A stretch of DNA of 62,105 nt, filler included, from Asterionella formosa (lineage: Eukaryota), in NCBI GenBank assembly GCA_002256025.1. It is 11 parts of 11 records of this genome, joined end to end, with 100 filler letters (N's around TTAATTAATTAA, not from the genome) between each part and the next. Parts side by side here need not be neighbours in the genome. Positions count along the whole stretch, not along the records: positions 56,560 to 62,105 come from NKIB01013022.1; 10 more parts are not named here. One strand, given 5' to 3'. Positions 58,192-62,105 of the stretch are shown here, piece after piece. Under the pieces are notes generated by a model that was given only the letters and a program-made list of their open reading frames with translations, was not told where the DNA came from and made no database searches. Position 1 is the first letter of the stretch; every line of letters starts with the position of its first letter. A program made the translations under genes and the position numbers.

Positions 58192-59401
58192 CTATGATCT
58201 AAAGATGTTGTCAGTGACGGATCACCGTGTCAAATTTTACTCAGGAAAACCATTTTTGTGGTTACTATGAAACTATTTCCTTGATGTCTAGAGAAACGAC
58301 ATGTTGTTTTGTTGAGACATGACACTGAATGCGGGCAGCCCACCTGAGCATCTGCAATTGACCACCATATCATGGGTGATTGGACAGTCATTGAAGAAGG
58401 AGAGGTCGAAATTGGACTGCTCAACATGCTCATGCCTTGACTGCGCTACTCCAGGCTCGATTAGCGCTTGATAGTGAAAGCACGCAGAAGTTGATTGTTG
58501 TTTTCCTGCTGGTCCATTTGACGAAGAAACCGAAGCTAGCATTCAATCAGAAATCAGAGATATCTTTAATGCGGCTGCTGAATTAAATGAACGCACACCT
58601 TGCTTTGCTTACATGTACGACGTCATTGTTAGCAACGACGATACCTGACAGGTAAAATCATGCTTTGACAGTGGGACAAACCACTCAATTTTTTTCTCAT
58701 TCCGTTTTCGAAGTTATTGATTGGAAATGGCAGTCAATCTTAAAGCACCAATCAAGCGAGACCTACATCTATCTCAAAATTCTCACCTAGAAAGTTCGAC
58801 TCAAAAGAAGTTTAACTCCGAACTTCCGAGAACGTCTGCGTCGAGCTGCATTTGCCGTTGGATCCACTGTGGAGACACTTGCTATCCATACGCTTGGATC
58901 GACCAAGAAAATACAGTCGGATAAATGTTGGCAAAACCGAATGATTCCTTGCGAGTTTTCCTAGATCCCACCAATGCATTGCTCAATCATATGGGTGCAA
59001 TCACAAGGGCGATAAATTCTGGGAAAGGTCCCATATTCTTGTGCCCTTGATTTATGCTTGGATTTGGTTGCCATGATTGTCCAAATGGATTTGGGAGCTT
59101 CAAGGGTTTTGCCCAGCATAACATGGGCGGAGGGGGTTCACCATTGATTTCACAATGACACAGATGATTCTCAGGTGATTTCTCAAATTGGCGGAATTCG
59201 ACCTCCTAGGCTTCGAGTTCAGCCAAAGATCCCAGTTGATTTGGAAGTATAGGAAGGAGCAAAGGCAGTAGATAGGCTAATCGAATATGTATGCTAAGCA
59301 ACAATGAATTGATCTTATTAAAAGACATCTTTTATTGTTTCTATTGCACATGCCGAACAAACTCAACAGCACCCACCCACAAATTTCGGCTGGATGGCAT
59401 G

Positions 59402-59929
59402 TTACATAGAAAGGCGAGATTGGCTAGAGTACCCCAGTGGCTCTCTATCCTTTCCATAAGAGCTCCTTGACGAGCGAATCACATCAACACTTTCATTGTG
59501 AATGATGGAATTTTCATCAATATCCTCCTCCAAGTTCCAAACATGATCCCCACCAATGACAGTATTGGTGTGTGTCTCGTCGCTGCATGTCAAGCCATCG
59601 TTTTCCTCGTCACTTGGCCACTTCATGAGTTCCACCGATCCCATGTACCAAGTCTTGGATGAATGTAAATTCAAAAGTTCCTTGTCAATGCTGACATCTG
59701 AATCTTCACCTTCGTTATTGTGGACTTGGACCACAGTAGGAAGATCAGCCCAGTGACAAGGATCATGTGGATAGTGAACCGGTGGCACTCTGGTCTGATG
59801 AACTCTGGATATAGTATTCGCCTTGCGTTGCTTCACTGGAGGCAAGCTCTGAGTGACAGTTTTGTCATTAGTTTGACAACGAAGCTCATCAGTGGCGAAT
59901 GGGCGATGGCGACGAAAAAGTTGAACCAT
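59402..59929 (-). CDS. Hypothetical protein (start uncertain)
   Basis: 175-aa ATG-initiated ORF with gene-like composition, divergent from LSM10. No recognisable domain. Confidence 0.45.
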   Translation of the reverse strand: MVQLFRRHRPFATDELRCQTNDKTVTQSLPPVKQRKANTISRVHQTRVPPVHYPHDPCHWADLPTVVQVHNNEGEDSDVSIDKELLNLHSSKTWYMGSVELMKWPSDEENDGLTCSDETHTNTVIGGDHVWNLEEDIDENSIIHNESVDVIRSSRSSYGKDREPLGYSSQSRLSM

Positions 59930-60259
59930 GGTGCTGGTTGAACAAGCTTTGGGAGTGAGAATGTGCGACTTTCATCCATTCGGATTTTGGACTTGCCGGG
60001 TTTGCTATGGATAGCTTCACCACCTCCGTACGAGAGACTCCGCTCTTCATCAGGTTAGAGTGAGACCAAAAGTGGTGCAAGAAAGTTGCCGCCCACTAAT
60101 AGACGAGAAACATGCAATGCCGATGAGAGATGGGATTGGTCCAAATGAGTGGCAAATTGTGAGGGACTTGTTCGGTACCACGAATTTGTTGATTGCGGCT
60201 GTATGACAATTTGGATGTTGTGCTACATGCTGATGGACGATGCCTCCACTCTTGTGAGA

Positions 60260-60646
60260 ATGGCGACAGTATCAACGGGTTTAAAGCTTTCGAAACCTTC
60301 CCATCGGACACTTGCTTCTCTACTCAAATACTTTCTTGGCGTAACATTGTCCGTGGAGCTGAAGAACGGCCGCCAATACCGCGGAGAATTGACGGAGGCC
60401 GACAAGTGCATGAATTTGACTTTGGAAGGAGCCCAAGACATTACGAGCACCACAACAAGTAGCAGCAGTCGCAGTTGCACTCAGGAAAGTTCAGGACTGT
60501 TTTTGGAACTGAGTATTCGCGGAAGCACAATCAGATACATTCAATTTCCGGACGACTGCGATATTCCGTTGGCAATCAAGCGTGGTCAAGATCGCGAGCG
60601 AAGCCTAACAAACAGATATCAACGCGGTGTACGCAAAACCAAATGA
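60260..60646 (+). CDS. LSM10: U7 snRNP Sm-like protein Lsm10
   Basis: RTLASLL lead-in, Sm1 VELKNG..YRG.L..AD..MNLTL and Sm2 IRGSTIRYIQFPD..DI. Lacks the RG-repeat tail of SmD1/D3. Confidence 0.75.
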   Translation: MATVSTGLKLSKPSHRTLASLLKYFLGVTLSVELKNGRQYRGELTEADKCMNLTLEGAQDITSTTTSSSSRSCTQESSGLFLELSIRGSTIRYIQFPDDCDIPLAIKRGQDRERSLTNRYQRGVRKTK

Positions 60647-62105
60647 GGGTGGCACTGCTGGTGGCAAAATCTTTCATGATCGTCGCCAATTGCAGCGCTT
60701 TTCAACTTTCGCTTGATAGAGCAACAATTATTCTGGGAAGGCTCACGATGTCAAGGTCTACTGCGTCCTACACAGCATGCATCAAGTGTCGCGGCGAAGG
60801 GAACCTCAAACGACCCATGTCCAAAAAAGCTCGCTCTCAAGCAAAAAGAAAAAAAATTGATGATGAACCACCATCACCAACACTGGCACCTTGCGTGATT
60901 TGCTCTGGATCTGGTCTTGTGGAAGGCGTACCCCCAACTCCTTCAGGACCAACGATCGCTATTGTTGGAGGTGGACTGGGAGGCTTAGCCCTGGCCGTTG
61001 CTTGCAAACATCGATCCATCCCTTTCACAGTATACGAACGTGATGCCGACTTTTCCGAACGATCACAAGGGTACGGTCTAACCATGCAACAGGCCAGCAA
61101 GGCGTTCAAATCGTTCGGGATCACGTTGGAAGGTGGTGTTACCTCCACTCAACATTTTGTGCATACACCGGACGGTGAAGTAGTCGGGAGTTGGGGCTTG
61201 AGAAAGTGGGGAAGACCAGACAATAAAAAGGAAGCGAAGCGTCAAAACATACATATAGCTAGGCAGTCGCTGCGCTGGCAATTACTCGAGGCCATGGGTG
61301 GACAAGTGGAATGGAATTGTCAATTGGTGGATTTAAAACAAGGCAAGGAGGGGGTCAAGATGACTTTTCTCAAAGGAAGCGAAACCCTGGAAAAAACTGC
61401 TGACTTGGTGGTTGGAGCAGACGGAATTCGAAGTACAACAAGGCGTCTATATGTGGGTGATGAGACCAGCCCACTTCGGTATTTAGGATGTTTGGTAGTT
61501 CTGGGCATTGTACCCCTTTCCAATGTAGTCAGCACGTCAGGCCTTCTTGACGGAGCCACTGTCTTCCAAACTGCAGATGGAACAACTCGCATCTACGCGA
61601 TGCCATATTCACCTGACAAATACATGTGGCAGCTTAGCTTTCCTTTGGAAGAAGAAGAGGCCAAAGTTATCAGTTTTGGTGGGTCTTCATCTCTAAAAGA
61701 TGAAGCTCTAAAACGATGCGGCTCCTGGCATGATCCCATTCCTCAATTACTTAAGGCAACACCAGAATCTCTCGTATCAGGATATCCAGTATACGATCGC
61801 TCAAATCTATCTCGACACATCCTAGATCCAAAGTCAATGATAACTCTCCTAGGCGATGCAGCTCATCCCATGAGCCCTTTTAAAGGTCAAGGCGCAAACT
61901 GTGCTATTCTCGATGGTTTGGATCTAGCCAAGGCCATCTACAAATCACCCGATAATCTTGAAGTCGCTGTGCAAAAGTATGAAACTGCGATGCTGGCAAG
62001 AAGTGCCACCAAAGTCAAGGCATCGGCGGAGGCAGCGCAATTTCTTCATTCGGAGATTGCTATCCAAGTGGGGGACGTGACTAGAGGATGTGCAGCTCAT
62101 ACCAA
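60643..62105 (+). CDS. FAD-dependent monooxygenase with an N-terminal CxxCxGxG zinc-finger pair; 3'-partial, absent from the ORF track
   Basis: Open frame from ATG 60643 to the window end: MRVALLVAKSFMIVANCSAFQL, CIKCRGEG..CVICSGSG, IVGGGLGGL, YERD..RSQGYGL, LVVGADG and LLGDAAHPMSPFKGQGAN. Confidence 0.9.
   Translation, partial: MRVALLVAKSFMIVANCSAFQLSLDRATIILGRLTMSRSTASYTACIKCRGEGNLKRPMSKKARSQAKRKKIDDEPPSPTLAPCVICSGSGLVEGVPPTPSGPTIAIVGGGLGGLALAVACKHRSIPFTVYERDADFSERSQGYGLTMQQASKAFKSFGITLEGGVTSTQHFVHTPDGEVVGSWGLRKWGRPDNKKEAKRQNIHIARQSLRWQLLEAMGGQVEWNCQLVDLKQGKEGVKMTFLKGSETLEKTADLVVGADGIRSTTRRLYVGDETSPLRYLGCLVVLGIVPLSNVVSTSGLLDGATVFQTADGTTRIYAMPYSPDKYMWQLSFPLEEEEAKVISFGGSSSLKDEALKRCGSWHDPIPQLLKATPESLVSGYPVYDRSNLSRHILDPKSMITLLGDAAHPMSPFKGQGANCAILDGLDLAKAIYKSPDNLEVAVQKYETAMLARSATKVKASAEAAQFLHSEIAIQVGDVTRGCAAHT

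What the first reader, a model, noticed from the sequence alone, without database searches (positions are those of the whole stretch)
60260..62105. LSM10 stop overlaps the monooxygenase start (ATGA): candidate bicistronic locus in a diatom
Seen: LSM10 ends AAA-TGA (60644-60646). The ATG at 60643-60645 opens an uninterrupted frame of more than 480 codons. Its first ~20 residues look like a signal peptide ending CSA-F, similar to the ASA-F plastid motif, which argues that this ATG is used. That leaves no intergenic room for a 3'UTR or promoter; even the later ATG at 60748 is only about 100 nt from the stop. Established: ATGA overlaps mediate termination-reinitiation in bacteria and some viruses, and polycistronic nuclear mRNAs with a short first ORF are known in green algae. 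Inference: a bicistronic transcript, or a promoter embedded in the LSM10 CDS.
Basis: partly seen in the sequence, partly recalled or inferred. Interest (0 to 1): 0.75.

Follow-up and report, generated by a model that had tools for sequence, protein, structure and literature searches.

The report
Conserved two-protein diatom messenger RNA
In this diatom a small RNA-processing gene ends on the very letters where an organelle-targeted enzyme gene begins, the pair is kept together in distant diatoms, and both proteins are probably made from one messenger RNA, a trick known from green algae but not found in print for diatoms.

Summary
The ATGA overlap is real. ORF1 (60260-60646) is LSm10-like, by elimination rather than best hit. 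ORF2 is a 499-aa FAD monooxygenase with a 35-aa presequence. In 3 of 4 runs laid, one unspliced contig covers both ORFs from 20-57 nt before ORF1, while the DNA upstream is uncovered; contigs cannot prove one transcript. The pair recurs in 7 other diatom lineages: DNA seen in L009 (21-nt gap), adjacent Epithemia locus tags, a wrongly fused Phaeodactylum model, and indirect evidence for four more; 2 of 4 fetched loci are unlinked. The spacer varies (-4, 21, about 65 nt), so ATGA itself is not conserved. ORF1 holds one ATG in 380 nt (3% tail). Best reading: bicistronic mRNA (about 0.7), ORF2 reached by leaky scanning (0.55 overall). Rivals: internal promoter, reinitiation. Known in green algae, including stop/start overlaps; not found for diatoms in my searches. 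This scan noted other diatom candidates on other DNA.

The parts
59324..60202 (.). Upstream stretch without RNA cover in X3, X4, X5 (silent control); holds the presumed promoter near its right end and a divergent 175-aa ORF
   Evidence: X7 alone has a contig over 59715-60519
60203..60259 (+). Short 5' leader; RNA contigs begin at 60203, 60230 and 60239
   Evidence: table 8 (contig ends are only a weak hint of a start site)
60260..60646 (+). ORF1: LSm10-like Sm-fold protein, 128 aa; start and stop match orthologues; 8 of 10 strain differences are synonymous
60410..60412 (+). The only ATG between the two start codons: invariant Met51 of the Sm motif, T at -3
60643..60646 (+). ATGA: ORF2 start overlapping the ORF1 stop (-4 nt)
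60643..60747 (+). 35-aa presequence of ORF2 (hydrophobic stretch, CSA|F, basic and acid-poor), with a second Met at 60676 kept in the closest orthologues; 2 of 2 strain differences are synonymous
60748..60750 (+). Internal Met36 in front of the mature domain, A at -3; a Met at this place recurs in diatom orthologues and is near where bacterial homologues start
60778..60915 (+). Two CxxCxGxG motifs (DnaJ-type zinc-finger-like; label recalled) flanking a basic loop, shared with bacterial homologues
60643..62105 (+). ORF2: FAD-dependent monooxygenase (FAD_binding_3), 499 aa, single locus; continues to L005 position 164, followed by about 87-186 nt of 3' cover and an AATAAA at L005 221

Best explanation
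One capped, polyadenylated, unspliced mRNA of about 2.0-2.1 kb starts shortly before ORF1 and ends after ORF2. Most ribosomes start at the ORF1 AUG and make the LSm10-like U7 snRNP subunit. Some scanning complexes pass that AUG (very short leader), meet only one weak-context AUG in the next 380 nt, and start at the AUG inside AUGA (or at M12), making the monooxygenase with an organelle presequence; those that pass these too can start at M36 and make a shorter untargeted form. The overlap is the extreme of a short, freely varying spacer, not a coupling signal. Shown: ORFs, overlap, continuous unspliced RNA cover, linkage in other diatoms, ATG scarcity. Inferred: single transcript (about 0.7), translation of both ORFs, leaky scanning, targeting, the M36 form.
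For: One contig spans both ORFs with no gap, joint or loose end in 3 of 4 runs (X3 and X5 poly(A)-selected, X4 RNA by guess; three studies), with zero cover over the upstream 879 nt in those runs; X7 bridges the junction with a 180-nt contig. ATG scarcity: 1 ATG in 380 nt; 4 of 134 equal CDS windows are as poor; all 18 other Sm/LSm domain matches hold 1-5 out-of-frame ATGs, ORF1 none. Presequence: 19 diatom-clade orthologue extensions contain 7 acidic residues in 850, against 10% in the mature protein. The junction is 48-49% GC with no UTR-like stretch; the true 3' flank is 37%. The anatomy matches green-algal bicistrons: short ORF1, short leader, ATG depletion, 5 of 43 Auxenochlorella rows with a 0-nt spacer (PMC11291117 sections 4, 8; PMC11892635 dataset S01).
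Against: All runs were contigs with flat depth: two overlapping mRNAs give the same picture, and one run may come from the genome's own source. ORF1's start has A at -3 and G at +4, a strong context by the classical rule (recalled), and ORF2's has C at -3; my own context matrix (51 ORFs) was too noisy to decide. Given the protein sequence, zero out-of-frame ATGs has p = 0.07 only. The linked locus L009 has 7 ATGs in 468 nt and L007 has 3 in 368, though 10 of 35 and 8 of 43 curated green-algal rows have 7 or more. L008 and L010 are not linked to the monooxygenase. For five of the seven linked lineages the junction DNA was not seen and no spacer could be inferred. No peptide or ribosome data.
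Confidence: 0.55

Rival explanations
1. Two overlapping monocistronic mRNAs: ORF2 has its own promoter inside the LSm10 coding sequence, and the LSm10 mRNA is polyadenylated inside or after ORF2. Linkage persists because the embedded promoter cannot be separated from ORF1.
For: Contigs cannot tell this apart. It explains conserved linkage with a free spacer and the ATG-rich ORF1 of L009. PMC7896298 (passages) reports many green-algal loci that are only partly polycistronic.
Against: No loose end or break anywhere in 60230-62105 in two poly(A) libraries (weak, contigs drop minor forms). The only AATAAA before the window end is at 61222. It does not predict ATG scarcity over all of ORF1.
Confidence: 0.22
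2. One mRNA, with ORF2 made by termination-reinitiation: ribosomes that finish LSm10 restart at the overlapping or nearby AUG, so both proteins rise and fall together.
For: AUGA is a classic reinitiation junction in viruses (PMC10275272 section 9). A second, distant locus, L007, also has ATGA at the LSm stop, in front of an unidentified presequence-like ORF cut by the contig end. Spacers that could be read or inferred are all short (-4, 21, about 65 nt). It tolerates internal ATGs, as in L009.
Against: Reinitiation after a long ORF usually needs an RNA element. No TGGGA motif (recalled TURBS core) in the 145 nt upstream or at L007-L009, and folding of 60540-60680 is no better than shuffles (z = +0.94). 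The exact overlap is not conserved. In green algae the mutational tests went against reinitiation (PMC11291117, passages).
Confidence: 0.15
3. One fused protein, by splicing (as the Phaeodactylum database model has it), frameshifting or readthrough; or ORF2 starts only at M36 and the overlap is an accident.
For: XP_002180103.1 is annotated as an Sm-monooxygenase fusion. The ORF2 frame is open 60 codons upstream of its ATG. Several database calls start at the internal Met.
Against: No joint in any run laid. The fused model drops the conserved LSm C-terminus, the presequence and a conserved block inside the enzyme, while other members of its cluster have the intact 549-aa ORF. Of 211 LSm-like proteins held, only that model matches the monooxygenase. 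No slippery heptamer; the frame relation differs between species, and L009 has two in-frame stops in the spacer. The extension is conserved in character across orthologues.
Confidence: 0.05

Closest known systems
Nuclear bicistronic genes of green algae translated by leaky scanning (Gallaher et al. 2021, PMC7896298; Duenas et al., PMC11291117 / PMC11892635)
   Same: Short ORF1 (387 nt; their medians 357 and 291), long ORF2, short leader, spacer of 0 to tens of nt including stop/start overlaps, few ATGs before ORF2, conserved collinearity, unrelated functions, organelle-linked products. One Auxenochlorella bicistron also holds a U7-associated LSm gene (A05.08890).
   Different: A stramenopile, not a chlorophyte. 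Here the LSm gene is ORF1, there ORF2 (819 nt, 70-nt spacer, unrelated partner). No long-read, chromatin, poly(A) or ribosome data here; a weak ORF1 context is not shown.
Viral termination-reinitiation at AUGA/UAAUG (caliciviruses, influenza B, HvV190S; PMC10275272 section 9)
   Same: Stop and start share nucleotides (AUGA), out of frame.
   Different: No TURBS-like motif or strong upstream fold found; the overlap is not kept in relatives; cellular mRNA.
LSm10 of the U7 snRNP
   Same: SmD1/LSm4-like Sm fold; extra paralogue beside a full canonical Sm/LSm set; LSm11-like gene and SLBP in the same genome; LSm10/11 homologues reported in stramenopiles (10.64898/2026.10.14.759114, passages).
   Different: Human LSm10 is not the best solved-structure hit (E 6e-7 against 5e-12 for LSm4); U7 snRNA was not sought.
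Group A flavoprotein monooxygenases (HpxO, TetX, salicylate hydroxylase-like; group name recalled)
   Same: FAD_binding_3 domain; distant hits over the whole catalytic domain.
   Different: Far below every NCBIfam cut-off (best 108.7 against 500 bits). It belongs to an unnamed subfamily with an N-terminal CxxCxGxG pair, shared at about 54% identity with Flavobacteria, Verrucomicrobia and Marinomonas; substrate unknown.

Membership tests
Green-algal-type nuclear bicistronic gene | Single RNA molecules span both ORFs (long reads) | tested here: inconclusive
   Short-read contigs span both in 3 of 4 runs; no long reads or raw reads were offered.
Green-algal-type nuclear bicistronic gene | One promoter before ORF1 and one poly(A) site after ORF2 | not testable with these tools
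   Contig ends fit (60203-60239; 87-186 nt past the ORF2 stop) but cannot show starts or ends.
Green-algal-type nuclear bicistronic gene | Two separate, conserved ORFs, not one fused protein | tested here: met
   Both families conserved; no intron; the only fusion among 211 LSm-like proteins is a database model that deletes conserved parts.
Green-algal-type nuclear bicistronic gene | Short ORF1, short leader, short spacer | tested here: met
   387 nt, about 20-57 nt, -4 nt.
Green-algal-type nuclear bicistronic gene | Collinearity conserved in relatives | tested here: met
   7 other lineages, 1 by DNA and 6 by indirect evidence; 2 of 4 fetched loci unlinked, 1 undecided.
Leaky-scanning mechanism | Few ATGs upstream of ORF2 | tested here: met
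   1 in 380 nt; 4 of 134 control windows as poor; p = 0.07 given the protein; not met in L009 (7 in 468).
Leaky-scanning mechanism | Weak start context at ORF1 | tested here: inconclusive
   A at -3 and G at +4; 20th percentile in a noisy 51-ORF matrix.
Leaky-scanning mechanism | ORF2 output varies inversely with ORF1 start strength | not testable with these tools
   Needs reporters.
TURBS-type termination-reinitiation | Stop/start overlap or close spacing | tested here: met
   ATGA here and in L007; 21 nt in L009.
TURBS-type termination-reinitiation | Structured upstream element with an 18S-complementary motif | tested here: not met
   No TGGGA (motif recalled) in 145 nt; fold z = +0.94. Non-TURBS elements are not excluded.
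LSm10 | Closest to LSm10 among Sm/LSm proteins | tested here: inconclusive
   LSm4 and SmD1 score higher than LSm10.
LSm10 | Extra SmD1-like paralogue beside canonical SmD1, SmD3, LSm2, LSm4, with an LSm11 partner and SLBP | tested here: met
   23 LSM matches in the genome; paralogues named by my reading of their sequences (labels recalled); L026 is a long SmD2/LSm3-like extra that hits LSm11 at E 2e-4, not as best hit; SLBP over cut-off.
Diatom bipartite plastid presequence | Signal peptide followed by small-x-small and F/W/Y/L, then a basic, acid-poor transit part | tested here: inconclusive
   A home-made loose rule was met by 13 of 19 extensions and 3 of 13 bacterial N-termini; SignalP/ASAFind were not available; a mitochondrial presequence is not excluded.

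The most novel reading that the evidence does not exclude
Diatoms have independently built an ancient class of nuclear two-protein mRNAs, and at this locus ORF2 is made by reinitiation after a full 128-codon ORF without any viral-type element. That would tie output of an organelle enzyme with bacterial relatives to synthesis of the histone-mRNA processing factor LSm10, and explain why the spacer stays short even where ORF1 is rich in ATGs.
Probability: 0.15. Interest if true: 0.82.

Novelty: new member of a known kind. Interest (0 to 1): 0.6.

Why it matters
If confirmed, nuclear bicistronic mRNAs extend from green algae to diatoms, a separate eukaryotic supergroup; my searches found no such report (the library lacks most subscription journals). 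The locus is directly testable in the model Phaeodactylum tricornutum, where the public gene model welds the two genes into one false protein and loses the enzyme's targeting sequence. It would give diatom engineers a native way to express two proteins from one promoter. It also names a diatom LSm10 and suggests, with the Auxenochlorella case, that low-abundance U7 subunits recur in bicistrons.

Tried and rejected
Scans of prokaryotic genomes and viral contigs for LSm10 loci found none; the metagenome scan gave only 4 loci. Matching contig lengths by eye between 10 more monooxygenase clusters and 10 more LSm clusters gave no further pair; these are mostly different organisms, so this says nothing against linkage. 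The alternative-frame test failed on first try (profile of 2 rows); repeated, it gave 1 clear positive (P0024) among 24 N-termini long enough to score. The reverse test on 4 LSm proteins with C-terminal tails gave one weak hint (P0256: 0 of 40 shuffles, 1 of 8 tests), not counted as linkage. The start-context matrix was too noisy. The LSm tree was poorly supported and the script stopped before the last labels; no conclusion drawn. Spliced fusion, frameshift and readthrough were rejected. A 5-codon uORF at 60240 was set aside: its ATG is lost in strain X7. A paper search for a diatom start-codon consensus returned nothing relevant. A sequence look-up among earlier scan findings was blank. Lack of RNA cover over the divergent ORF is not taken as evidence about that ORF. 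No structure or complex prediction was run: it would not bear on the transcript question.

Full report
Observation. The window is a chain of short contigs joined by N; the finding lies at the end of G000:C13022, with an allelic copy on C14179. ORF1 runs 60260-60646 and its TGA shares three bases with the ATG at 60643 that opens ORF2. ORF2 continues into contigs L005/L006 and has 499 aa. That the organism is a freshwater diatom is inferred: the RNA holders are lake and freshwater runs and the named relatives are diatoms. In a 256-kb sample of the genome, 0 of 38 complete ORFs of 250 aa or more overlapped an upstream ORF's stop (the query itself runs off its contig and was not among them).

The two genes. 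ORF1 has an LSM domain. Its start at 60260 and its stop agree with orthologues, and 8 of 10 strain differences in it are synonymous. Solved-structure searches rank LSm4 and SmD1 above LSm10, so the name rests on elimination: the genome's 23 LSM matches include, by my reading of their sequences, SmB, D1, D2, two D3-like, E, F, G and LSm1-8, plus a long SmD2/LSm3-like extra that hits LSm11, and SLBP is present. A 2026 preprint reports LSm10 and LSm11 homologues in stramenopiles (10.64898/2026.10.14.759114, passages). ORF2 is an FAD monooxygenase below every NCBIfam cut-off, present at one locus, with two CxxCxGxG motifs. Among the best 120 homologues, 31 form a diatom-containing group apart from the bacterial ones (support 0.996, midpoint root); bacterial relatives are about 54% identical.

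Is the overlapping ATG used? Of 29 diatom-clade rows with the cysteine motif, 20 have 21 or more residues in front of an internal Met. I set aside P0032, whose annotated N-terminus is hydrophilic; the other 19 hold 7 acidic residues in 850, against 10% in the mature protein. Several rows are close relatives. The closest orthologues keep the stretch around M12, and both strain differences in the extension are synonymous. So a translated presequence is likely, starting at the overlap ATG or at M12. A loose signal-plus-F/W/Y/L rule fits 13 of 19 extensions and 3 of 13 bacterial controls: plastid targeting is plausible, mitochondrial is not excluded.

RNA. Four of the 14 runs listed were laid, all as contigs. 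X3 and X5 (poly(A)) and X4 (RNA by guess) each give one contig of 1991-2126 nt that begins at 60230, 60239 or 60203 and runs 87-186 nt past the ORF2 stop, with no gap, joint or loose end, and no cover over 59324-60202. X7, a strain about 96% alike, gives four pieces, one bridging the junction and one reaching into the upstream stretch. This excludes a dominant spliced fusion and shows both ORFs in one continuously covered unit; it does not show one molecule.

Conservation. Of four metagenome loci fetched, L009 (LSm 41% identical) has the monooxygenase 21 nt downstream; L007 has another ATGA overlap with an unidentified ORF cut by the contig end; L008 has an unrelated 544-aa ORF 244 nt downstream, and L010 a gene on the other strand. 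Epithemia clementina has the two genes as ACA910_020725 and _020726 on one contig (strand and gap not seen). Phaeodactylum tricornutum XP_002180103.1 joins them in one 598-aa model that lacks the LSm C-terminus, the 42-aa start of ORF2 and a conserved block of the enzyme, while other cluster members have the intact 549-aa ORF; I read this as false introns. The over-long N-terminus of P0024 encodes the LSm C-terminus in another frame (80.5 against at most 42.4 in 60 shuffles), implying a gap near 65 nt. Three pairs of protein clusters share exact contig lengths (order and strand not seen). The linkage is therefore old and common but not universal, and the spacer varies.

Mechanism. Between the two starts lies one ATG, the invariant Met51, with T at -3. 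Four of 134 equal coding windows are as poor, and all 18 other Sm/LSm domain matches have 1-5 out-of-frame ATGs against none here. Given the protein sequence the deficit is weaker (0 against 1.8 expected, p = 0.07). In-frame Met counts in the LSm core average 2.8 over 129 orthologues; this one has 1, as do P0123, P0124 and the Phaeodactylum part, while P0122 and Epithemia have 2. Against: L009 has 7 ATGs in 468 nt, ORF1's context looks strong by the classical rule, and my context matrix was uninformative. Curated green-algal bicistrons include 10 of 35 and 8 of 43 rows with 7 or more upstream ATGs (PMC11892635 dataset S01), so L009 does not rule the model out. For reinitiation I found no TURBS-like motif and no unusual fold, and such elements are usually needed after a long ORF (PMC10275272 section 9). 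I put a single mRNA at about 0.7: leaky scanning 0.55, reinitiation 0.15; separate overlapping mRNAs 0.22; fusion or late start only 0.05.

What is known. Gallaher et al. (PMC7896298; passages and a supplement search) and Duenas et al. (PMC11291117: abstract, passages, sections 8 and 16, first part of section 4; PMC11892635: supplement searches and part 1 of dataset S01) describe such loci in green algae, with stop/start overlaps and leaky scanning shown by mutation; neither of the two texts searched for the word mentions diatoms. One Auxenochlorella bicistron has a U7-associated LSm gene as ORF2 with an unrelated partner. Five searches for diatom or stramenopile nuclear polycistrons (listings only, plus one passage check) found no report; the library lacks most subscription journals. 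Earlier notes of this scan describe four other diatom candidates, two in this genome; I did not test them, and none concerns this pair.

Verdict. A real, conserved LSm10-like plus monooxygenase gene pair, probably a bicistronic nuclear mRNA: a known kind in a lineage where I found it unreported. Interest 0.6.

Noticed in passing
Phaeodactylum XP_002180103.1 / B7FZ78 (P0378): The public model fuses LSm10 to the monooxygenase and drops conserved parts of both; probably two false introns.
   Followed up: partly
L007 1962-2054: Second ATGA overlap at an LSm10 stop in a distant diatom; the downstream ORF looks like a presequence but is cut by the contig end.
   Followed up: partly
L008 2497-4131: LSm10 followed 244 nt later by an unrelated 544-aa ORF with a presequence-like N-terminus and no NCBIfam hit; the spacer has 4 ATGs.
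   Followed up: partly
L005 and L006, 691-835: A long array of a five-base repeat begins about 530 nt after the monooxygenase stop and runs to the contig end.
   Followed up: no
window 59402-59929 (-): Divergent 175-aa ORF about 330 nt upstream of ORF1, no Pfam hit.
   Followed up: partly
L021-L023 and L025; L026; L054: The genome appears to have two SmD3-like genes, an LSm11-like gene with a long N-terminus, and SLBP with a stop inside the match, perhaps an intron: a likely U7-type histone pathway in a diatom.
   Followed up: partly
P0001 family: An unnamed monooxygenase subfamily with an N-terminal cysteine-motif pair is shared by diatoms and by Flavobacteria, Verrucomicrobia and Marinomonas at about 54% identity; gene transfer is possible, direction untested.
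   Followed up: partly
P0004, P0005, P0160: One close linked lineage seems to have an intron early in the monooxygenase: its gene calls begin just after the first FAD motif.
   Followed up: no
P0256: An LSm10 orthologue with a 65-aa C-terminal tail whose end may encode the monooxygenase cysteine motif in another frame, which would mean a deep overlap; weak.
   Followed up: partly
PMC11892635 datasets S01, S05: Auxenochlorella A05.08890, a U7-associated LSm gene (819 nt), is ORF2 of a curated bicistron.
   Followed up: yes
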